Below, piece by piece: positions 1 to 9,233 of a stretch of 9,233 nucleotides of DNA. Under the pieces are notes generated by a model that saw nothing but the letters and a program-made list of their open reading frames with translations, made no database searches and was not told where the DNA came from. Position 1 is the first letter of the stretch. Each line of letters begins with the position of its first letter. This stretch comes from Giardia intestinalis. Lineage: Eukaryota. The stretch is from assembly GCA_000002435.2 (NCBI GenBank), contig AACB03000014.1, one strand, 5' to 3'. The position numbers and the translations under genes are program-made.

Positions 1-1
1 T

Positions 2-1386
2 GGGTTTGGGTGGATAGCTGCAATACGGTCTCCACGCCAGAAGGTTGCTTTTTCGATCGAGATGGTGGATATTATTTCTAATATCCAGGGGCCTATTTCG
101 TTAGACATAATCCACAAGGAGACGATGTCGTCGGTCTATCAAACTCCTCTTAAGGTGTTCCAGCGTGATGATGTTTATCCCTGTAGCAGAAAAGTCTCCA
201 AGACGCTTTCTCCTGGCGAATATATTGCCAGGCTCGTAGACATTCCACGGGCATCATTCACGAGGAGTCTACAATTACGGTGGTTCCGCGAAACACTGCG
301 CAATTTGGTGAATTTTCTCCCGAAGATCTGGCTAAGCACAAACATTTCCCTAGACAATGTGGATGTCACTATGACTTTGAAGATGACATGCGACACTGAA
401 GGATTCTTCCATTTCACGCAGATAAGGCGTACGGATCCTACTGTTCGCGTGAAGAGGGTTCTACGTGAACAGCCAATCCAAAATGGACCGAAGAAATAGA
501 GGCACAGGAAGCAGAGAGGGAGAAGGCCGCAGAAGCACAGTACGCGATGAACTGGCTCAGCATGAGGCAAAGCTGAAGGAACTAAACGAGGCACTTTCTA
601 ACCGCTGCAGACGCCAATAAGGACGCACTAACAAAGGACATAGCCGATCACAAGGCAAAGGCGCCGAAGAAGCAGATCGTCGTCCGCACGCCAAAGATGG
701 TTCAAGTGTCCGTTGAGGAGAAAGACTTAACTACAGAGATCACCAATGTTGATCGCAAGGTCCTTATAAATATCGGTGAAACGGCAGATCTGGCTAAGCA
801 GCTTGAGGACTTCGAGAAGTGTTGCAAGGAGGTCGACCGCAAGGCTCTCCGCTAATGAGCACGCCCGCAATACTTTTGAGTCCCTTGTCTACGATACAAG
901 AAATATATGGATTGGGGGAAGTTCGCTGAGTTTACGACTGAGGAAGACAAGAGGAAGATTATTCCTCATCTTGACGAGCACAGCGCTTTCATTAGCAGCA
1001 TCGAAGGGCCTCACCAGACCGCTGAGATCGAAGAGCGCATTCAGAGGCTCGAAAACGAAATCCGCTTCCTTCATGAGCGTAAGGAGTCCCATGATTCAGC
1101 CGACCTTCGCTTGATGAGCTTGCGCAGCAGTGTAGACTCTCTTTTAGAGAGATGGCCAGCAAATGGTGTTAATAATGAAGCTCGGGACAGGCTAACAGCA
1201 TTCTATGCAGAATGTGAGAAAGCTGTTCGACAAGCGTCTAAGCACGAGCTCGCCCCACTAACTCTTTTTGAGGATGCGGATCGACGTCTTGCAGACTTTG
1301 AAAAGGCTCTCCAGGCTAAGGCGGAGCCCGCAAAGTCCGATAATACATCTGATGCAGCTCCAAAAGAGGCTGACAAAAGTAAATGA
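2..1386 (+). CDS. Hsp70-superfamily (Hsp110/Sse1-like) chaperone, C-terminal substrate-binding beta domain plus helical lid. 5'-partial (open from the window edge), with 3-5 frame breaks between about 497 and 915; possible pseudogene
   Basis: Frame 2 is open from nt 2 to the TAG at 497-499. Its translation reads ...AAIRSPRQKVAFSIEMVDIISNIQGPISL..., which parallels Hsp110 ...AILSPAFKVREFSV...PFPISL... Further downstream, ...SANEHARNTFESLVYDTRNI (frame 2, about 846-910) matches the Hsp70/Hsp110 lid motif ...DAKNAVEEYVYEMRDKL. Then GKFAEFTTEEDKRKIIPHLDEHSAF...PHQTAEIEERIQRLENEI (frame 1, 917-1386) parallels Hsp70 ...[22 protein letters not shown]...NQTAEKEEFEHQQKELE. The continuation switches frame near 497, about 545, about 598, about 850 and about 910. 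Stop is TGA at 1384-1386. Similarity is from memory of family consensus, not a database search. Confidence 0.6.
1378..1384 (+). promoter_or_regulatory. AGTAAAT, matching the Giardia-type polyadenylation signal AGTRAAY, overlapping the chaperone stop codon
   Basis: The sequence ...gac aaa AGT AAA TGA... places the heptamer over the last sense codons and the stop. This is the position at which diplomonad poly(A) signals usually sit. Inference from a known motif. Confidence 0.4.
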
Positions 1387-1398
1387 TTGTTATCCTAC

Positions 1399-1656
1399 CT
1401 ATTTACTCATAGGAGGCTCTTTGGGCGCTATTGTGTGTACCATTGCGATTGTATCTGCACGGACAAGCACAACAGGAAGAGAAGTTGGGTCAGAACCAGG
1501 AATCTCGAGAGTGGCGTCTTGGAGGACCACATTAAAGAATTCGTCCAGTCCGACACAAGTGCCGGTGAGGACGCCGCTATGGGGGTCTACCGGCCAAAGT
1601 GTGACACGGGAGTTTGCACGGGCGAAGGCGCAGAGTTCGAGAGCAGGAGAAGGCAT
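1399..1656 (-). CDS. Sm/LSm-fold small protein (LSm5-like), 85 aa
   Basis: The translation PALELCAFARANSRVTLWPVDPHSGVLTGTCVGLDEFFNVVLQDATLEIPGSDPTSLPVVLVRADTIAMVHTI carries the Sm1 motif (G.L.GFDEFMNLVL.DA.E) and the Sm2 motif (hhhRGxxIxxh). It is collinear with LSm5 (PLELVDKCIGSRIHIV...GTLLGFDDFVNMVLEDVTEFEITPEG...LDQILLNGNNITMLV). ATG is at 1656-1654 and is preceded on the minus strand by the AT-rich AAACTTACTTTTT. TAG is at 1401-1399. The size is typical of LSm proteins. Confidence 0.6.
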   Translation of the reverse strand: MPSPALELCAFARANSRVTLWPVDPHSGVLTGTCVGLDEFFNVVLQDATLEIPGSDPTSLPVVLVRADTIAMVHTIAPKEPPMSK

Positions 1657-1670
1657 AAAAAGTAAGTTTC
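1657..1670 (-). promoter_or_regulatory. Short AT-rich initiator-like element directly upstream of the LSm-like ATG
   Basis: The minus strand reads ...GTGAAACTTACTTTTT|ATG. Diplomonad promoters are typically short AT-rich tracts abutting the start codon. Weak, inferential. Confidence 0.25.
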
Positions 1671-1806
1671 ACTCCAGCATGCTTCTTTCACTCTGCGTTG
1701 GCCGGCCACGCAGTGAACTCATCATGATGTCTGCAGATCAGCAGCCCTCTAAACGTACTATAAGACCGTTGACATTAGTGATGCGTTTATTGCATAAGTA
1801 CATATC

Positions 1807-2265
1807 TTATGTCCTTCCTCTGCAGATGAACCACCAGTAAAGGAAACCGACCAAGACACTGACGATAAACATAATCACCGTTGCACTGACCGTAACTACT
1901 ACCATCTTCCTTCCGGTAAGAGTATTGACAGGAATGCAGACACCCTTGTCAAGAATTGTATCAGACTCGCACATGCACACCCCCTGGTTCGATGAGGCCC
2001 TGGCACCGCACCCCTCTGCACACGTCCGCTGATCTGTCTGGATGTTATGATTCGAGGCGGCACACAAGAGGCACCTACCCAACTCATCGCAGGCAGCACA
2101 CCACGGCATGTCAGGGGGACACTCAGCTGCGGGCACACACTCGGATCTGTCCAGTGCCGGCAGGAGGCCCCGCTCGCACCAGCACCTCCGCACGCCGCCG
2201 GACACCTCTCCCACCACTTTGTCCCCGGTGCACTCCCCTAGGCACGACTGCCCGTCCAGGCTCAC
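1807..2265 (-). pseudogene. C-terminal fragment of a Giardia VSP-like cysteine-rich surface protein (Cys-rich ectodomain, TM helix, 5-aa tail CRGRT). The N-terminus is replaced or truncated by the 14-bp microsatellite
   Basis: The minus-strand translation ends ...[97 protein letters not shown]. It contains CxxC/CxC motifs, a hydrophobic helix of about 25 aa, and the motif GFLxWWFxCRGxx immediately before the stop, as in Giardia VSPs (canonical ...GFLCWWFVCRGKA). There is no signal peptide or start codon. Upstream, the frame reads through a 14-nt (non-triplet) repeat. Stop is TAA at 1809-1807. Confidence 0.6.
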
Positions 2266-2498
2266 GAGGACCCACCACAGAGGACCCACCACAGAGGACC
2301 CACCACAGAGGACCCACCACAGAGGACCCACCACAGAGGACCCACCACAGAGGACCCACCACAGAGGACCCACCACAGAGGACCCACCACAGAGGACCCA
2401 CCACAGAGGACCCACCACAGAGGACCCACCACAGAGGACCCACCACAGAGGACCCACCACAGAGGACCCACCACAGAGGACCCACCACAGAGGACCCA
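2266..2498. repeat. 14-bp tandem microsatellite (GAGGACCCACCACA)n, about 16.6 copies, perfect
   Basis: Direct reading gives unit starts at 2266 + 14k. The array degenerates at 2499 (...gaggacccaTTatgg). The period is not a multiple of 3, so the six-frame ORFs across it ([14 protein letters not shown] / [14 protein letters not shown] repeats) are artefacts. Confidence 0.97.
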
Positions 2499-2514
2499 TT
2501 ATGGAAGACAAAGT

Positions 2515-2586
2515 GGTCGGTGGGGGGCTCGAACCCCCGACCTTCAGCTTATCAGACTGACGCTCTACCGACTGAGCTAACCGACC
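2515..2586 (-). tRNA. tRNA-Ile(GAU): Complete tRNA gene with anticodon GAU (Ile), eukaryote cytosolic tRNA-Ile-like body
   Basis: The reverse complement is GGTCGGT TA GCTC AGTCGGTA GAGC G TCAGT CTGATAA GCTGA AGGTC GGGGG TTCGAGC CCCCC ACCGACC, 72 nt. It has a perfect 7-bp acceptor stem, D stem GCTC/GAGC with A14 G18 G19 A21, a 5-bp anticodon stem (one U-G), U33-GAU-A37, a 5-nt variable loop, and a 5-bp T stem with T loop TTCGAGC. A box is TAGCTCAGTCGG (positions 8-19). B box is GGTTCGAGCCC (positions 52-62). The discriminator A is at 2514. No CCA is encoded. The downstream T-run is weak (ACTTTGTCTT). Confidence 0.8.
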
Positions 2587-5500
2587 GCGGCCCCTCGCCG
2601 GACCCCCCGCCGGCCCAGCACCCGCCTTCAGCTTATCAGACTGACGCTCTACCGACTGAGCTAACCGACCGCGGCCCCTCGCCGGACCCCCCGCCGGCCC
2701 AGCACCCGCCTTCAGCTTATCAGACTGACGCTCTACCGACTGAGCTAACCGACCGCGGCCCCTCGCCGGACCCCCCGCCGGCCCAGCACCCGCCTTCAGC
2801 TTATCAGACTGACGCTCTACCGACTGAGCTAACCGACCGCGGCCCCTCGCCGGACCCCCCGCCGGCCCAGCACCCGCCTTCAGCTTATCAGACTGACGCT
2901 CTACCGACTGAGCTAACCGACCGCGGCCCCTCGCCGGACCCCCCGCCGGCCCAGCACCCGCCTTCAGCTTATCAGACTGACGCTCTACCGACTGAGCTAA
3001 CCGACCGCGGCCCCTCGCCGGACCCCCCGCCGGCCCAGCACCCGCCTTCAGCTTATCAGACTGACGCTCTACCGACTGAGCTAACCGACCGCGGCCCCTC
3101 GCCGGACCCCCCGCCGGCCCAGCACCCGCCTTCAGCTTATCAGACTGACGCTCTACCGACTGAGCTAACCGACCGCGGCCCCTCGCCGGACCCCCGCCGG
3201 CCCAGCACCCGCCTTCAGCTTATCAGACTGACGCTCTACCGACTGAGCTAACCGACCGCGGCCCCTCGCCGGACCCCCCGCCGGCCCAGCACCCGCCTTC
3301 AGCTTATCAGACTGACGCTCTACCGACTGAGCTAACCGACCGCGGCCCCTCGCCGGACCCCCCGCCGGCCCAGCACCCGCCTTCAGCTTATCAGACTGAC
3401 GCTCTACCGACTGAGCTAACCGACCGCGGCCCCTCGCCGGACCCCCCGCCGGCCCAGCACCCGCCTTCAGCTTATCAGACTGACGCTCTACCGACTGAGC
3501 TAACCGACCGCGGCCCCTCGCCGGACCCCCCGCCGGCCCAGCACCCGCCTTCAGCTTATCAGACTGACGCTCTACCGACTGAGCTAACCGACCGCGGCCC
3601 CTCGCCGGACCCCCCGCCGGCCCAGCACCCGCCTTCAGCTTATCAGACTGACGCTCTACCGACTGAGCTAACCGACCGCGGCCCCTCGCCGGACCCCCCG
3701 CCGGCCCAGCACCCGCCTTCAGCTTATCAGACTGACGCTCTACCGACTGAGCTAACCGACCGCGGCCCCTCGCCGGACCCCCCGCCGGCCCAGCACCCGC
3801 CTTCAGCTTATCAGACTGACGCTCTACCGACTGAGCTAACCGACCGCGGCCCCTCGCCGGACCCCCCGCCGGCCCAGCACCCGCCTTCAGCTTATCAGAC
3901 TGACGCTCTACCGACTGAGCTAACCGACCGCGGCCCCTCGCCGGACCCCCCGCCGGCCCAGCACCCGCCTTCAGCTTATCAGACTGACGCTCTACCGACT
4001 GAGCTAACCGACCGCGGCCCCTCGCCGGACCCCCCGCCGGCCCAGCACCCGCCTTCAGCTTATCAGACTGACGCTCTACCGACTGAGCTAACCGACCGCG
4101 GCCCCTCGCCGGACCCCCCGCCGGCCCAGCACCCGCCTTCAGCTTATCAGACTGACGCTCTACCGACTGAGCTAACCGACCGCGGCCCCTCGCCGGACCC
4201 CCCGCCGGCCCAGCACCCGCCTTCAGCTTATCAGACTGACGCTCTACCGACTGAGCTAACCGACCGCGGCCCCTCGCCGGACCCCCCGCCGGCCCAGCAC
4301 CCGCCTTCAGCTTATCAGACTGACGCTCTACCGACTGAGCTAACCGACCGCGGCCCCTCGCCGGACCCCCCGCCGGCCCAGCACCCGCCTTCAGCTTATC
4401 AGACTGACGCTCTACCGACTGAGCTAACCGACCGCGGCCCCTCGCCGGACCCCCCGCCGGCCCAGCACCCGCCTTCAGCTTATCAGACTGACGCTCTACC
4501 GACTGAGCTAACCGACCGCGGCCCCTCGCCGGACCCCCCGCCGGCCCAGCACCCGCCTTCAGCTTATCAGACTGACGCTCTACCGACTGAGCTAACCGAC
4601 CGCGGCCCCTCGCCGGACCCCCCGCCGGCCCAGCACCCGCCTTCAGCTTATCAGACTGACGCTCTACCGACTGAGCTAACCGACCGCGGCCCCTCGCCGG
4701 ACCCCCCGCCGGCCCAGCACCCGCCTTCAGCTTATCAGACTGACGCTCTACCGACTGAGCTAACCGACCGCGGCCCCTCGCCGGACCCCCCGCCGGCCCA
4801 GCACCCGCCTTCAGCTTATCAGACTGACGCTCTACCGACTGAGCTAACCGACCGCGGCCCCTCGCCGGACCCCCCGCCGGCCCAGCACCCGCCTTCAGCT
4901 TATCAGACTGACGCTCTACCGACTGAGCTAACCGACCGCGGCCCCTCGCCGGACCCCCCGCCGGCCCAGCACCCGCCTTCAGCTTATCAGACTGACGCTC
5001 TACCGACTGAGCTAACCGACCGCGGCCCCTCGCCGGACCCCCCGCCGGCCCAGCACCCGCCTTCAGCTTATCAGACTGACGCTCTACCGACTGAGCTAAC
5101 CGACCGCGGCCCCTCGCCGGACCCCCCGCCGGCCCAGCACCCGCCTTCAGCTTATCAGACTGACGCTCTACCGACTGAGCTAACCGACCGCGGCCCCTCG
5201 CCGGACCCCCCGCCGGCCCAGCACCCGCCTTCAGCTTATCAGACTGACGCTCTACCGACTGAGCTAACCGACCGCGGCCCCTCGCCGGACCCCCCGCCGG
5301 CCCAGCACCCGCCTTCAGCTTATCAGACTGACGCTCTACCGACTGAGCTAACCGACCGCGGCCCCTCGCCGGACCCCCCGCCGGCCCAGCACCCGCCTTC
5401 AGCTTATCAGACTGACGCTCTACCGACTGAGCTAACCGACCGCGGCCCCTCGCCGGACCCCCCGCCGGCCCAGCACCCGCCTTCAGCTTATCAGACTGAC

Positions 5501-8500
5501 GCTCTACCGACTGAGCTAACCGACCGCGGCCCCTCGCCGGACCCCCGCCGGCCCAGCACCCGCCTTCAGCTTATCAGACTGACGCTCTACCGACTGAGCT
5601 AACCGACCGCGGCCCCTCGCCGGACCCCCCGCCGGCCCAGCACCCGCCTTCAGCTTATCAGACTGACGCTCTACCGACTGAGCTAACCGACCGCGGCCCC
5701 TCGCCGGACCCCCCGCCGGCCCAGCACCCGCCTTCAGCTTATCAGACTGACGCTCTACCGACTGAGCTAACCGACCGCGGCCCCTCGCCGGACCCCCCGC
5801 CGGCCCAGCACCCGCCTTCAGCTTATCAGACTGACGCTCTACCGACTGAGCTAACCGACCGCGGCCCCTCGCCGGACCCCCCGCCGGCCCAGCACCCGCC
5901 TTCAGCTTATCAGACTGACGCTCTACCGACTGAGCTAACCGACCGCGGCCCCTCGCCGGACCCCCCGCCGGCCCAGCACCCGCCTTCAGCTTATCAGACT
6001 GACGCTCTACCGACTGAGCTAACCGACCGCGGCCCCTCGCCGGACCCCCCGCCGGCCCAGCACCCGCCTTCAGCTTATCAGACTGACGCTCTACCGACTG
6101 AGCTAACCGACCGCGGCCCCTCGCCGGACCCCCCGCCGGCCCAGCACCCGCCTTCAGCTTATCAGACTGACGCTCTACCGACTGAGCTAACCGACCGCGG
6201 CCCCTCGCCGGACCCCCCGCCGGCCCAGCACCCGCCTTCAGCTTATCAGACTGACGCTCTACCGACTGAGCTAACCGACCGCGGCCCCTCGCCGGACCCC
6301 CCGCCGGCCCAGCACCCGCCTTCAGCTTATCAGACTGACGCTCTACCGACTGAGCTAACCGACCGCGGCCCCTCGCCGGACCCCCCGCCGGCCCAGCACC
6401 CGCCTTCAGCTTATCAGACTGACGCTCTACCGACTGAGCTAACCGACCGCGGCCCCTCGCCGGACCCCCCGCCGGCCCAGCACCCGCCTTCAGCTTATCA
6501 GACTGACGCTCTACCGACTGAGCTAACCGACCGCGGCCCCTCGCCGGACCCCCCGCCGGCCCAGCACCCGCCTTCAGCTTATCAGACTGACGCTCTACCG
6601 ACTGAGCTAACCGACCGCGGCCCCTCGCCGGACCCCCCGCCGGCCCAGCACCCGCCTTCAGCTTATCAGACTGACGCTCTACCGACTGAGCTAACCGACC
6701 GCGGCCCCTCGCCGGACCCCCCGCCGGCCCAGCACCCGCCTTCAGCTTATCAGACTGACGCTCTACCGACTGAGCTAACCGACCGCGGCCCCTCGCCGGA
6801 CCCCCGCCGGCCCAGCACCCGCCTTCAGCTTATCAGACTGACGCTCTACCGACTGAGCTAACCGACCGCGGCCCCTCGCCGGACCCCCCGCCGGCCCAGC
6901 ACCCGCCTTCAGCTTATCAGACTGACGCTCTACCGACTGAGCTAACCGACCGCGGCCCCTCGCCGGACCCCCCGCCGGCCCAGCACCCGCCTTCAGCTTA
7001 TCAGACTGACGCTCTACCGACTGAGCTAACCGACCGCGGCCCCTCGCCGGACCCCCGCCGGCCCAGCACCCGCCTTCAGCTTATCAGACTGACGCTCTAC
7101 CGACTGAGCTAACCGACCGCGGCCCCTCGCCGGACCCCCCGCCGGCCCAGCACCCGCCTTCAGCTTATCAGACTGACGCTCTACCGACTGAGCTAACCGA
7201 CCGCGGCCCCTCGCCGGACCCCCCGCCGGCCCAGCACCCGCCTTCAGCTTATCAGACTGACGCTCTACCGACTGAGCTAACCGACCGCGGCCCCTCGCCG
7301 GACCCCCCGCCGGCCCAGCACCCGCCTTCAGCTTATCAGACTGACGCTCTACCGACTGAGCTAACCGACCGCGGCCCCTCGCCGGACCCCCCGCCGGCCC
7401 AGCACCCGCCTTCAGCTTATCAGACTGACGCTCTACCGACTGAGCTAACCGACCGCGGCCCCTCGCCGGACCCCCCGCCGGCCCAGCACCCGCCTTCAGC
7501 TTATCAGACTGACGCTCTACCGACTGAGCTAACCGACCGCGGCCCCTCGCCGGACCCCCCGCCGGCCCAGCACCCGCCTTCAGCTTATCAGACTGACGCT
7601 CTACCGACTGAGCTAACCGACCGCGGCCCCTCGCCGGACCCCCCGCCGGCCCAGCACCCGCCTTCAGCTTATCAGACTGACGCTCTACCGACTGAGCTAA
7701 CCGACCGCGGCCCCTCGCCGGACCCCCCGCCGGCCCAGCACCCGCCTTCAGCTTATCAGACTGACGCTCTACCGACTGAGCTAACCGACCGCGGCCCCTC
7801 GCCGGACCCCCCGCCGGCCCAGCACCCGCCTTCAGCTTATCAGACTGACGCTCTACCGACTGAGCTAACCGACCGCGGCCCCTCGCCGGACCCCCCGCCG
7901 GCCCAGCACCCGCCTTCAGCTTATCAGACTGACGCTCTACCGACTGAGCTAACCGACCGCGGCCCCTCGCCGGACCCCCCGCCGGCCCAGCACCCGCCTT
8001 CAGCTTATCAGACTGACGCTCTACCGACTGAGCTAACCGACCGCGGCCCCTCGCCGGACCCCCCGCCGGCCCAGCACCCGCCTTCAGCTTATCAGACTGA
8101 CGCTCTACCGACTGAGCTAACCGACCGCGGCCCCTCGCCGGACCCCCCGCCGGCCCAGCACCCGCCTTCAGCTTATCAGACTGACGCTCTACCGACTGAG
8201 CTAACCGACCGCGGCCCCTCGCCGGACCCCCCGCCGGCCCAGCACCCGCCTTCAGCTTATCAGACTGACGCTCTACCGACTGAGCTAACCGACCGCGGCC
8301 CCTCGCCGGACCCCCCGCCGGCCCAGCACCCGCCTTCAGCTTATCAGACTGACGCTCTACCGACTGAGCTAACCGACCGCGGCCCCTCGCCGGACCCCCC
8401 GCCGGCCCAGCACCCGCCTTCAGCTTATCAGACTGACGCTCTACCGACTGAGCTAACCGACCGCGGCCCCTCGCCGGACCCCCCGCCGGCCCAGCACCCG

Positions 8501-9233
8501 CCTTCAGCTTATCAGACTGACGCTCTACCGACTGAGCTAACCGACCGCGGCCCCTCGCCGGACCCCCCGCCGGCCCAGCACCCGCCTTCAGCTTATCAGA
8601 CTGACGCTCTACCGACTGAGCTAACCGACCGCGGCCCCTCGCCGGACCCCCCGCCGGCCCAGCACCCGCCTTCAGCTTATCAGACTGACGCTCTACCGAC
8701 TGAGCTAACCGACCGCGGCCCCTCGCCGGACCCCCCCGCCGGCCCAGCACCCGCCTTCAGCTTATCAGACTGACGCTCTACGACTGAGCTAACCGACCGC
8801 GGCCCCTCGCCGGACCCCCCGCCGGCCCAGCACCCGCCTTCAGCTTATCAGACTGACGCTTCTACCGACTGAGCTAACCGACCGCGGCCCCCTCGCCGGA
8901 CCCCCCGCCGGCCCAGCACCCGCCTTCAGCTTATCAGACTGACGCTTCTACCGACTGAGCTAACCGACCGCGGCCCCTCGCCGGACCCCCCGCCGGCCCA
9001 GCACCCCGCCTTCAGCTTATCAGACTGACGCTCTACCGACTGAGCTAACCGACCGCGGCCCCTCGCCGGACCCCCGCCGGCCCAGCACCCGCCTTCAGCT
9101 TATCAGACTGACGCTCTACCGACTGAGCTAACCGACCGCGCCCCTCGCCGGACCCCCCGCCGGCCCAGCACCCGCCTTCAGCTTATCAGACTGACGCTCT
9201 ACCGACTGAGCTAACCGACCGCGGCCCTCGCCG
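2541..9233 (-). repeat. 84-bp tRNA-derived satellite, at least about 79.7 head-to-tail copies. Each unit is tRNA-Ile(GAU) positions 1-46 plus a 38-nt GC-rich segment. It runs off the window end
   Basis: The period was measured directly: ccttcagctt recurs at 2541, 2625, 2709 and onward. The minus-strand unit is GGTCGGTTAGCTCAGTCGGTAGAGCGTCAGTCTGATAAGCTGAAGG + CGGGTGCTGGGCCGGCGGGGGGTCCGGCGAGGGGCCGC. The first 46 nt are identical to positions 1-46 of the complete tRNA at 2515-2586. The array is nearly invariant to about 8730 and has more single-base variants after that. Confidence 0.98.

What the first reader, a model, noticed from the sequence alone, without database searches (positions are those of the whole stretch)
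2541..2708. Unit architecture: tRNA positions 1-46 fused to a 38-nt GC-rich segment at a CGGG microhomology; A box and anticodon loop kept, T arm and B box lost
The complete gene reads ...CTGAAGG-T-CGGGGGTTCGAGCC... The units read ...CTGAAGG-CGGGTGCTGGGCC... The breakpoint therefore lies at tRNA position 46/47 with a shared CGGG. The 38-nt segment CGGGTGCTGGGCCGGCGGGGGGTCCGGCGAGGGGCCGC is not a degenerate T arm. It is also the sequence immediately 5' of the intact tRNA, so the unit is (5' flank + tRNA 5' two-thirds). This fits an initial microhomology-mediated duplication followed by unequal exchange, with polarity such that the intact gene is the 3'-most copy on its strand. Each unit retains a pol III A box (TAGCTCAGTCGG) but no B box (GGTTCGAGCCC is present only in the full copy). 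Units are therefore probably not autonomous pol III genes, though they present about 80 tandem A-box sites.
Basis: seen in the sequence. Interest (0 to 1): 0.7.

Follow-up and report, generated by a model that had tools for sequence, protein, structure and literature searches.

The report
Truncated tRNA-Ile minisatellite in Giardia
In Giardia intestinalis assemblage A, an intact isoleucine tRNA gene lies at the end of a tandem array of at least 79 copies of its own first 46 bases joined to a GC-rich spacer; this looks like a young, isolate-variable minisatellite made by local duplication, not a set of working genes.

Summary
On the minus strand, an intact tRNA-Ile(GAU) (2513-2586) is the 3'-most copy. 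It is preceded by 79 units of 84 nt (tRNA positions 1-46 plus a 38-nt spacer) that run off the window end. Units differ only by homopolymer-length indels. The same error type occurs in the unique flank, so the window is a noisy long-read assembly.

The locus belongs to Giardia intestinalis assemblage A. An independent assembly (isolate DH) starts inside the same array, with the same GAAGG|CGGGTGC junction but spacers of 58, 57 and 26 nt built from short modules. Assemblage E (P15) has no 5' array and a different 5' flank. It carries instead two extra downstream copies of the tRNA's 3' part.

The array is therefore real, lineage-specific and unstable. The spacer is not a decayed T arm (p = 0.26). 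The "CGGG microhomology" is out of register, because T47 is missing, and is weak statistically (p about 0.07). The A-box/B-box argument is unsafe because no TFIIIC has been found in Giardia. Units do not fold better than shuffled sequence.

Most likely this is a neutral partial-gene minisatellite. Interest is modest.

The parts
2513..2586 (-). Intact tRNA-Ile(GAU) gene. It is the terminal, 3'-most copy of the array on its strand.
   Evidence: ARAGORN. Rfam RF00005 74.7 bits, full length. Cloverleaf MFE -33.1 kcal/mol, z = -3.58. Sequence identical in isolate DH.
2587..9233 (-). Tandem array of 79 units of 84 nt (38-nt GC-rich spacer plus tRNA positions 1-46). It runs off the window end; 9221-9233 is a partial spacer.
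   Evidence: TRF period 84, 79.8 copies, 99%. Unit parse: 69 identical, 10 with homopolymer indels only. Each unit scores 27.8 bits against Rfam tRNA, below the gathering score of 29.
2541..2708 (-). The stretch named in the finding: exactly two repeat periods, comprising tRNA 1-46 of the intact gene, the proximal spacer, the first truncated copy and its spacer.
   Evidence: Direct reading. Breakpoint lies between 2541 (G46) and 2540 (T47).
2587..2624 (-). Proximal 38-nt spacer CGGGTGCTGGGCCGGCGGGGGGTCCGGCGAGGGGCCGC, made of modules b (15 nt), c (12 nt) and d (11 nt).
   Evidence: Modules were defined by comparison with the DH spacers of 58, 57 and 26 nt. Only module d resembles the P15 5' flank.
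2625..2670 (-). First truncated copy: tRNA positions 1-46 (acceptor 5' strand, D arm, anticodon arm, first bases of the variable loop).
2266..2498 (.). 14-bp tandem repeat GAGGACCCACCACA, 16.6 copies, starting 14 nt 3' of the tRNA. It is the second unstable repeat flanking the gene.
   Evidence: TRF 100% matches. DH has a 15-bp period with an extra G and fewer copies.
1807..2250 (-). Remnant of a variant-specific surface protein (VSP) gene: C-terminal Cys-rich part, transmembrane segment and a ...CRGRT tail.
   Evidence: Pfam PF03302 VSP, E = 2.2e-4, profile positions 339-396 of 397, below the curated cut-off. The remnant is also present in DH and P15.
1399..1656 (-). SnRNP Sm-like protein gene (85 aa). 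It anchors the locus to Giardia intestinalis.
   Evidence: Pfam LSM. Exact match to XP_001705624.1 / A8BQC4_GIAIC. Found on Giardia contigs.
1..1386 (+). 3' part of an HSP70-family gene, broken into several ORFs here by single-base indels.
   Evidence: Intact 845-aa PF00012 gene in DH, P15, GS and Logan contigs. In the window's first 1919 bp (which also span the Sm-like gene and part of the VSP remnant) there are 8 homopolymer-length indels relative to an Illumina contig.

Best explanation
This is a lineage-specific minisatellite at the tRNA-Ile(GAU) locus of Giardia intestinalis assemblage A.

Proposed history (inferred):
- A segment made of the GC-rich 5' flank plus the first 46 nt of the tRNA gene was duplicated in tandem.
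- The join lay between the variable loop (after G46) and a GG/CGGG-type motif in the flank.
- Once two 84-100-nt direct repeats existed, replication slippage or unequal sister-chromatid exchange expanded and homogenised the array to at least 79 copies in this isolate.
- The same slippage between short GG|CG(G/A)G motifs adds and removes 12-19-nt modules inside the spacer. This explains why another isolate has 58-, 57- and 26-nt spacers.

Shown: the truncated copies lack the T arm, the acceptor 3' strand and any terminator-like T run, and they do not fold like an RNA gene.

Inferred: they are most likely inert pseudogene fragments, and only the terminal copy is a functional tRNA gene.

Also inferred: the locus is intrinsically unstable. 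It lies between VSP sequences, has a second short tandem repeat on its 3' side, and carries an independent mirror-image partial duplication in assemblage E. The instability may arise because an active tRNA gene and G-rich hairpin- or G4-prone DNA stall replication forks.
For: Architecture and copy number.

Real, not an assembly artefact: the DH contig AHGT01000015.1 (GCA_000498715.1) begins inside the array. It has three units with the same GAAGG|CGGGTGC junction followed by the intact gene.

Derived state: the orthologous P15 locus has one intact gene with a unique 5' flank next to an intact VSP, and no 5' array.

Modular spacer variation: a+b+c+d, b+c+d and b+d, with every boundary GG|CG(G/A)G.

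Spacer is not T-arm-derived.

No RNA-structure signal: unit z = -0.04; the 64-nt T-armless reading z = -0.26; the intact tRNA z = -3.58. Rfam 27.8 bits is below the gathering score of 29.

Not protein coding: the array has one open frame on each strand, but the DH units of 103-104 nt are not multiples of 3, and no homologous proteins were found.

No TTTT on the array's sense strand.

Instability of the locus: P15 carries two extra copies of a 67-73-nt spacer plus tRNA positions 24-73, with a D-arm remnant (p = 0.006). The 3' repeat has a 14-bp period here and 15 bp in DH.

Unit variants are sequencing noise: they are all homopolymer-length indels, the same type as the 8 indels in the unique flank relative to Illumina contigs.
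Against: - The far end of the array is not in the window or in DH, so the original left boundary, and hence the true microhomology, is unseen.
- The junction lacks T47. It is therefore not a textbook microhomology product, and the CGGG coincidence is only p about 0.07.
- Perfect identity of the 79 units could partly reflect consensus polishing of a collapsed repeat. Copy number and homogeneity are not independently verified for this isolate.
- No expression data were available, so the claim that the copies are inert is an inference.
- Giardia pol III promoters are uncharacterised and TFIIIC is unidentified. Loss of the B box therefore does not prove the units are silent.
- The replication-stalling cause is inferred from general knowledge of tRNA genes in yeast and was not tested here.
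Confidence: 0.78

Rival explanations
1. Functional array. The units are transcribed, either individually from A-box or upstream elements or as a long precursor. They yield tRNA-Ile 5'-fragment-like small RNAs, or act as a sink, boundary element or fork barrier through about 80 binding sites for the pol III machinery.
For: - 79-80 intact A-box, D-arm and anticodon-arm segments.
- In the three DH units the 46-nt tRNA part has no substitutions, while the spacers carry 2 substitutions and 1 indel. The numbers are too small to be significant.
- Giardia makes regulated tRNA-derived small RNAs of about 46 nt (PMC11764236), although these come from the 3' part of mature tRNAs.
- Giardia pol III initiation may not need a B box, since no TFIIIC has been identified.
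Against: - The units show no folding signal (z = -0.04).
- There is no terminator-like T run.
- Spacer length is not conserved between isolates: 26 to 58 nt.
- The array is absent in assemblage E, so it cannot be a conserved function.
- The GC-rich spacer has no AT-rich element like the A7 run at -36 to -28 of the P15 gene.
Confidence: 0.12
2. Assembly artefact. The array, or most of its 79 copies, was produced by a long-read assembler at a contig end from a locus with only a few copies.
For: - The window is an error-prone long-read assembly with homopolymer indels.
- The array sits at the window end and errors pile up in the last 520 bases.
- Short-read contigs never reach it.
Against: - An independent assembly of another isolate (DH) contains at least three units at the same place with the same junction.
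- Short-read contigs stop earlier, in the VSP tail at about window 1919, for an unrelated reason.
- Artefactual run-on would not normally produce 6.6 kb of in-register 84-nt units.
Confidence: 0.06
3. Decay of an ancestral array of complete tRNA-Ile genes, or a tRNA-derived SINE-like retroposon array. Under the second they were inserted by retroposition.
For: - An 84-nt unit could hold a 73-nt tRNA plus an 11-nt spacer.
- P15 also has multiple tRNA-Ile-derived copies at this locus.
- The spacer core GGGGGTCCG matches the P15 T arm 9 of 9 (p = 0.03 before correction for several comparisons).
Against: - The boundary is sharp: 46 of 46 identity, then no significant similarity (p = 0.26 local, 0.59 global). 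This fits a breakpoint, not gradual decay.
- The P15 copies retain the opposite part of the gene, with an unrelated CT-rich spacer.
- The arrangement is head-to-tail next to the parent gene, with no A-rich tail, no target-site duplications and no dispersed copies. This argues against retroposition.
Confidence: 0.04

Closest known systems
Entamoeba histolytica tRNA gene arrays with tRNA-linked short tandem repeats
   Same: A protist parasite carries tRNA sequences in long head-to-tail arrays. The intergenic short repeats vary between isolates and are used for strain typing (PMC7924757). PMC2888827 states that tRNA tandem repeats had been reported only in Entamoeba.
   Different: Entamoeba units carry complete, presumably functional tRNA genes, often several different ones, and make up a large share of the genome. 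Here there is a single locus. The units hold only positions 1-46 of one tRNA, and only the terminal copy is complete.
Minisatellites and partial-gene tandem duplications generated by slippage or unequal exchange, including tandem repeats with partial tRNA copies in animal mitochondrial control regions (from general knowledge, not tested here)
   Same: The unit is a gene fragment plus adjacent flank. The intact gene sits at one edge. Units are highly homogeneous. Copy number and unit length vary between strains. Short direct repeats lie at the junctions.
   Different: This array is nuclear, has an unusually high copy number (at least 79) for a very compact genome, and has a modular GC-rich, G-run-rich spacer.
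tRNA-derived SINEs and tRNA-derived satellite DNAs (from general knowledge)
   Same: The sequence combines a tRNA-related 5' part bearing an A box with a tRNA-unrelated segment.
   Different: SINEs keep both A and B boxes, are dispersed by retroposition and carry tails and target-site duplications. None of that is seen here.
Partial tRNA-Ile duplication at the orthologous locus of Giardia assemblage E (P15, ACVC01000143.1)
   Same: The same gene, the same neighbours (VSP remnant, Sm-like gene, HSP70), and tandem copies with one breakpoint inside the tRNA.
   Different: It is a mirror image. The copies lie 3' of the gene and retain positions 24-73 plus a D-arm remnant. The spacer is 67-73 nt and CT-rich. 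There are only two extra copies, and they are already diverging (GAT to GGT in the last).

Membership tests
tRNA gene (Rfam RF00005) | Full cloverleaf scoring above the curated gathering score | tested here: met
   This applies to the intact copy at 2513-2586 only: 74.7 bits against a gathering score of 29. ARAGORN calls Ile-GAT. Fold z = -3.58.
tRNA gene (Rfam RF00005), applied to the 84-nt units | Full cloverleaf scoring above the curated gathering score; T arm and acceptor 3' strand present | tested here: not met
   27.8 bits is below 29. The T arm is replaced by a 10-nt gap, with a fortuitous 6-of-7 pseudo-acceptor pairing. ARAGORN calls none of them. Fold z = -0.04 and -0.26.
Tandem minisatellite formed by local partial-gene duplication | Head-to-tail units in register, adjacent to the parent gene, which forms the terminal copy | tested here: met
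   The polarity is the same in DH.
Tandem minisatellite formed by local partial-gene duplication | Variation between strains in copy number or unit length, and absence in an outgroup | tested here: met
   The window has 38-nt spacers. DH has spacers of 58, 57 and 26 nt. P15 has no 5' array.
Tandem minisatellite formed by local partial-gene duplication | Microhomology at the founding junction | tested here: inconclusive
   GG(T)CGGG versus GG|CGGG matches only with a 1-base offset, p about 0.07. The original left boundary lies beyond the window.
tRNA-derived SINE | Internal A and B boxes, dispersed copies, 3' tail, target-site duplications | tested here: not met
   The B box occurs once, in the intact gene only. 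No tail or target-site duplications are visible. The 30-mer spacer core and the tRNA 5' 26-mer have no hits in the collections searched, and a 17-nt spacer motif matches the other fetched loci only in the DH array. Whole Giardia genomes could not be searched.
Entamoeba-type tRNA gene array | Units contain complete tRNA genes | tested here: not met
   The units end at tRNA position 46.
Autonomous type-2 pol III gene (A box + B box + T-run terminator, TFIIIC-dependent) | B box and terminator present in each unit; TFIIIC present in the organism | tested here: not met
   No unit has a B box or a TTTT run. TFIIIC is reported as unidentifiable in Giardia (PMC3369914). The criterion itself may therefore not apply to this organism, and actual transcription cannot be tested with these tools.

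The most novel reading that the evidence does not exclude
The tRNA-Ile(GAU) gene of Giardia may be a recurrent, gene-internal breakpoint hotspot. Under this reading, pol III transcription or tRNA-like DNA structure, together with G4- or hairpin-prone flanks, repeatedly triggers template switching. That would explain independent partial-tRNA tandem arrays on opposite sides of the gene in different assemblages. The expanded assemblage-A array might also be expressed, for example as junction-bearing 5' tRNA-Ile fragments, or might titrate the minimal TBP/BRF pol III machinery of an organism that lacks TFIIIC. If so, the locus would be a natural experiment on promoter requirements and on tRNA-gene-induced genome instability in a deep-branching eukaryote.
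Probability: 0.12. Interest if true: 0.6.

Novelty: new member of a known kind. Interest (0 to 1): 0.36.

Why it matters
- Giardia genomes are compact and repeat-poor outside rDNA, VSP and retrotransposon regions. A tandem array of more than 6.6 kb built from a truncated tRNA is unusual there, and I found no description of it in the searchable literature.
- Annotation risk: the array breaks assemblies. It produces about 79 near-threshold 'tRNA pseudogene' hits and long spurious ORFs on both strands.
- Typing: unit structure differs between A1-like, A2 (DH) and E isolates. The locus could serve as a high-resolution marker, as tRNA-linked repeats do in Entamoeba.
- Biology: opposite-sided partial duplications of the same tRNA gene in two assemblages suggest a fragile site that could be tested. 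In an organism without recognisable TFIIIC, the array also separates A-box-only copies from a complete gene.

Tried and rejected
- Protein search with the two open frames of the array (sense [28 protein letters not shown], antisense [28 protein letters not shown]): no hit at E <= 1e-3. Together with the DH units that are not multiples of 3, this led me to reject a coding repeat.
- Exact scans of metagenome contigs and genome contigs with the tRNA 5' 26-mer and the spacer 30-mer: 0 hits in each. These collections evidently hold no Giardia assemblage A DNA, so the scans say little about Giardia paralogues.
- Exact-protein look-ups of the VSP-tail ORF (57-aa and 55-aa versions), intended to find contigs that cross the short-read break: not on record.
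- All Logan short-read contigs stop at about window 1919-1947, inside the VSP tail. They cannot show the array.
- Assemblage B contigs (GS, GS_B) end 53 and 615 nt upstream of the Sm-like gene without a tRNA. That locus is unresolved.
- T-armless tRNA reading of the units, suggested by the Rfam alignment: rejected, because folding is no better than shuffles.
- Spacer as a decayed T arm: rejected. The 9-of-9 match to the P15 T arm (p = 0.03) is not significant after several comparisons.
- Literature searches on Giardia with tRNA, tandem repeat, tRNA pseudogene, minisatellite and PacBio, and on tRNA-derived satellites: no paper describes this array. PMC4191773 is not held.
- The Giardia tRNA-Ile gene complement (GAU, AAU, UAU) could not be established.
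Full report
**1. What is in the window**

ARAGORN finds one tRNA gene, tRNA-Ile with anticodon GAT, at 2513-2586 on the minus strand. Rfam scores it 74.7 bits over the full model.

Tandem Repeats Finder reports an 84-bp period with 79.8 copies and 99% matches from 2536 to the last base, 9233. It also reports a perfect 14-bp repeat (16.6 copies) at 2266-2498.

Read on the minus strand, each unit is made of two parts:
- GGTCGGTTAGCTCAGTCGGTAGAGCGTCAGTCTGATAAGCTGAAGG, which is tRNA positions 1-46.
- CGGGTGCTGGGCCGGCGGGGGGTCCGGCGAGGGGCCGC, a 38-nt spacer.

The intact gene continues after G46 with T-CGGGGGTTCGAGCC... The 38-mer lies immediately 5' of the intact gene, and the intact gene is the 3'-most copy. 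The coordinates 2541-2708 in the finding are exactly two periods.

My parse gives 79 truncated units plus the intact gene:
- 69 units are identical.
- The other 10 differ only by single-base homopolymer-length indels, with no substitutions.
- 6 of those 10 lie in the last 520 bases.

Exact motif counts on the minus strand:

| Motif | Count |
|---|---|
| A box TAGCTCAGTCGG | 79 |
| B box GGTTCGAGCCC | 1 |
| Unit junction GAAGGCGGGTGC | 78 |
| TTTT on the array's sense strand | 0 |

The array is cut by the window end, so 79 is a minimum.

**2. Where it comes from and how good the sequence is**

The flank encodes three recognisable features:
- An LSM-domain protein of 85 aa at 1399-1656 (-).
- A weak but specific match to the C-terminal end of Pfam VSP ('Giardia variant-specific surface protein') at about 1807-2250 (-).
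- The 3' part of an HSP70-family gene at 1-1386 (+).

The LSM protein is identical to XP_001705624.1 / A8BQC4_GIAIC, a 'SnRNP Sm-like protein' of Giardia intestinalis. It is carried by Giardia contigs in NCBI and in Logan assemblies.

In all those assemblies the HSP70 gene is an intact 845-aa ORF. In the window it is split. Over 1919 bp the window differs from an Illumina-derived contig by 8 indels, all in homopolymer length, plus a few SNPs. The window is therefore an unpolished long-read assembly of an assemblage A isolate. The indel 'variants' among units are best read as the same kind of error.

**3. Is the array real?**

Yes. The contig AHGT01000015.1 of isolate DH (GCA_000498715.1, an independent assembly; 97% identical to the window in the flank) begins inside the array. 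It shows three units followed by the intact gene, with the identical junction GAAGG|CGGGTGC.

Its spacers differ from those of the window: 58, 57 and 26 nt. Comparison resolves the spacer into four modules:

| Module | Sequence |
|---|---|
| a | CGGGTGCGCAGAGGGCCGG |
| b | CGGGTGCTGGGCCGG |
| c | CGGGGGGTCCGG |
| d | CGAGGGGCCGC |

- DH distal units are a+b+c+d.
- Window units are b+c+d.
- The DH proximal unit is b+d.
- Every boundary, including tRNA46|spacer, reads GG|CG(G/A)G.

Short-read contigs never reach the tRNA because they break earlier, at about window 1919, in the repeated VSP tail.

**4. Outgroup**

The orthologous locus of assemblage E (P15, ACVC01000143.1) has the same neighbours and one intact tRNA-Ile(GAT). 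Its 5' flank is unique (...CTCTAAAAAAAGTCCTCATGCCCTGTTCCCACGGGCCGC) and leads to an intact divergent VSP gene. There is no 5' array.

Only the last ~11 nt of that flank resemble the window spacer (CCACGGGCCGC versus module d CGAGGGGCCGC). The array and most of the 38-mer are therefore derived in the assemblage A lineage.

P15 carries a different duplication on the other side of the gene:
- Two extra tandem copies, each made of a 67- or 73-nt CT-rich spacer plus tRNA positions 24-73.
- Each copy is preceded by a D-arm remnant, GCTCGTCGGTG (alignment to tRNA 1-23, p = 0.006).
- The last copy is already mutated in the anticodon.

Assemblage B contigs end too close to the Sm-like gene to be informative.

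**5.

(a) 'Not a degenerate T arm' is supported. Local alignment of the spacer to its own T arm and 3' flank is no better than shuffles (p = 0.26; global p = 0.59).

(b) 'CGGG microhomology' is only partly supported.
- In register, the unit has C where the gene has T47.
- CGGG is shared only after skipping T47, so the observed junction is not what a clean CGGG-mediated join would give (that join would read GAAGGTCGGGTG).
- Shuffled spacers begin with CGGG at that offset 6.5% of the time.
- The recurrent GG|CG(G/A)G boundaries do point to this motif class as the slippage site.

(c) 'Local duplication rather than a composite of two elements' is favoured. The array is absent in P15. No copy of the spacer core was found in the collections searched, and a 17-nt spacer motif matches the other fetched Giardia loci only in the DH array. 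Whole Giardia genomes and tRNA-Ile paralogues could not be searched.

(d) 'A box without B box, so not autonomous pol III genes' rests on correct sequence facts. The logic, however, assumes TFIIIC. Homology searches found no TFIIIC and only TBP and BRF of TFIIIB in Giardia WB, GS and P15 (PMC3369914). This inference cannot be judged here.

**6. Do the units look functional?**

No positive sign was found.
- The unit folds no better than shuffles (z = -0.04). The intact tRNA gives z = -3.58.
- Rfam aligns each unit as a T-armless tRNA with a 6-of-7 pseudo-acceptor pairing, at 27.8 bits, below the gathering score of 29. That 64-nt reading also folds no better than shuffles (z = -0.26).
- The pairing distance changes in the DH units.
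- One frame on each strand of the 84-nt array is open. The DH units of 103-104 nt break the frame, and no related proteins exist.
- The array is absent in assemblage E.

**7. Best explanation**

This is a young, unstable minisatellite. It was founded by a tandem duplication of [5' flank + tRNA 1-46], with a breakpoint in the variable loop. It was then expanded and homogenised by slippage or unequal exchange, and the spacer modules turn over by the same process.

The cause of instability is inferred. It may involve:
- Fork stalling at an active tRNA gene. This is established in yeast, from general knowledge; PMC2888827 notes the link between tRNA genes and fragile sites.
- A G-run-rich spacer. 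It contains GGG-N4-GGG-N5-GGGGGG-N8-GGGG, a loose G-quadruplex motif, and GCCGG/CCGGC hairpins.
- A recombination-prone VSP neighbourhood.

Rivals are ranked in the rival-explanations section: functional small-RNA source or factor sink (about 0.12), assembly artefact (about 0.06), and decayed full-gene array or SINE (about 0.04).

**8. Comparison with known systems and novelty**

The closest named case is the tRNA gene arrays of Entamoeba, with their tRNA-linked short repeats. Those units are complete genes, so this locus is not a member of that family.

Mechanistically it is an ordinary partial-gene minisatellite. What is new is the instance: a truncated-tRNA unit, at least 79 copies, in Giardia, with a mirror-image counterpart in another assemblage. 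I found no paper describing it. I rate it a new member of a known kind, of modest interest. Its practical value lies in annotation and strain typing.

Noticed in passing
L011:2560-2872 (Giardia P15, ACVC01000143.1): Mirror-image duplication in assemblage E. The intact tRNA-Ile is followed by two tandem copies of a 67- or 73-nt CT-rich spacer plus tRNA positions 24-73. Each copy is preceded by a D-arm remnant lacking three A's (GCTCGTCGGTGGC versus GCTCAGTCGGTAGAGC). Rfam scores these copies 29.8 and 29.0 bits as D-armless tRNA-like, because GTCGGTG pairs perfectly with CACCGAC.
   Followed up: partly
L011:2613-2619 and both partial copies: All three P15 copies have the T loop TCCGAGC (C at position 55), where the window and DH have TTCGAGC. 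U55 is almost universal in tRNAs, so the P15 gene may be impaired or unusual.
   Followed up: no
window 2266-2498; L001:320-510: A perfect 14-bp repeat (TGTGGTGGGTCCTC on the tRNA strand, 16.6 copies) starts 14 nt 3' of the tRNA. In DH the period is 15 bp (one extra G) with fewer copies, and it is in frame with an ATG and the VSP remnant. This is a second isolate-variable repeat at the same gene.
   Followed up: partly
window 1-1919: There are eight homopolymer-length indels relative to Illumina-derived Giardia contigs. They split the HSP70-family gene (845 aa elsewhere) into several ORFs. The window is an unpolished long-read assembly, so frameshifts here are not biology.
   Followed up: yes
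window 1807-2250 (-): A VSP gene remnant ends in ...FLYWWFICRGRT. From my own knowledge, the canonical VSP tail is CRGKA. The remnant is conserved in position in DH and P15, where the tail reads ...FICQEKT. Short-read assemblies all break inside it.
   Followed up: partly
window 2587-9233, both strands: Because 84 is a multiple of 3 and one frame on each strand has no stop codon, the array yields very long spurious ORFs (28-aa repeats). It also gives about 79 Rfam tRNA hits just under threshold. Both are likely sources of mis-annotation.
   Followed up: yes
window 2587-2624 and every spacer (minus strand): The spacer has four G runs (GGG, GGG, GGGGGG, GGGG) with loops of 4, 5 and 8 nt, and a GCCGG/CCGGC hairpin. 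It could therefore form a G-quadruplex or hairpin about 80 times on the tRNA-sense strand. DNA folding of the spacer alone is not significantly stronger than shuffles (z = -1.19).
   Followed up: partly
window 2500-2512; L011:2633-2650: No run of four or more T follows the intact tRNA in the window (CACTTTGTCTTCC) or in P15 (GCCTGCTGCTTCTC). P15 has an A7 run at -36 to -28 upstream of the gene. The window gene has only GC-rich spacer there. This bears on how Giardia pol III starts and stops.
   Followed up: no
window 2513-2586: The isoleucine tRNA has a G34 anticodon (GAU). From general knowledge, eukaryotic nuclear genomes usually rely on A34 (inosine) tRNA-Ile. I could not check whether Giardia also has an AAU gene or other GAU copies.
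   Followed up: no
window 2567-2585 (tRNA positions 2-7 and 15-20): The tRNA contains an internal direct repeat, GTCGGT, once in the acceptor 5' strand and once in the D loop. This may favour slippage within the gene and explains the D-armless alignment of the P15 copies.
   Followed up: no
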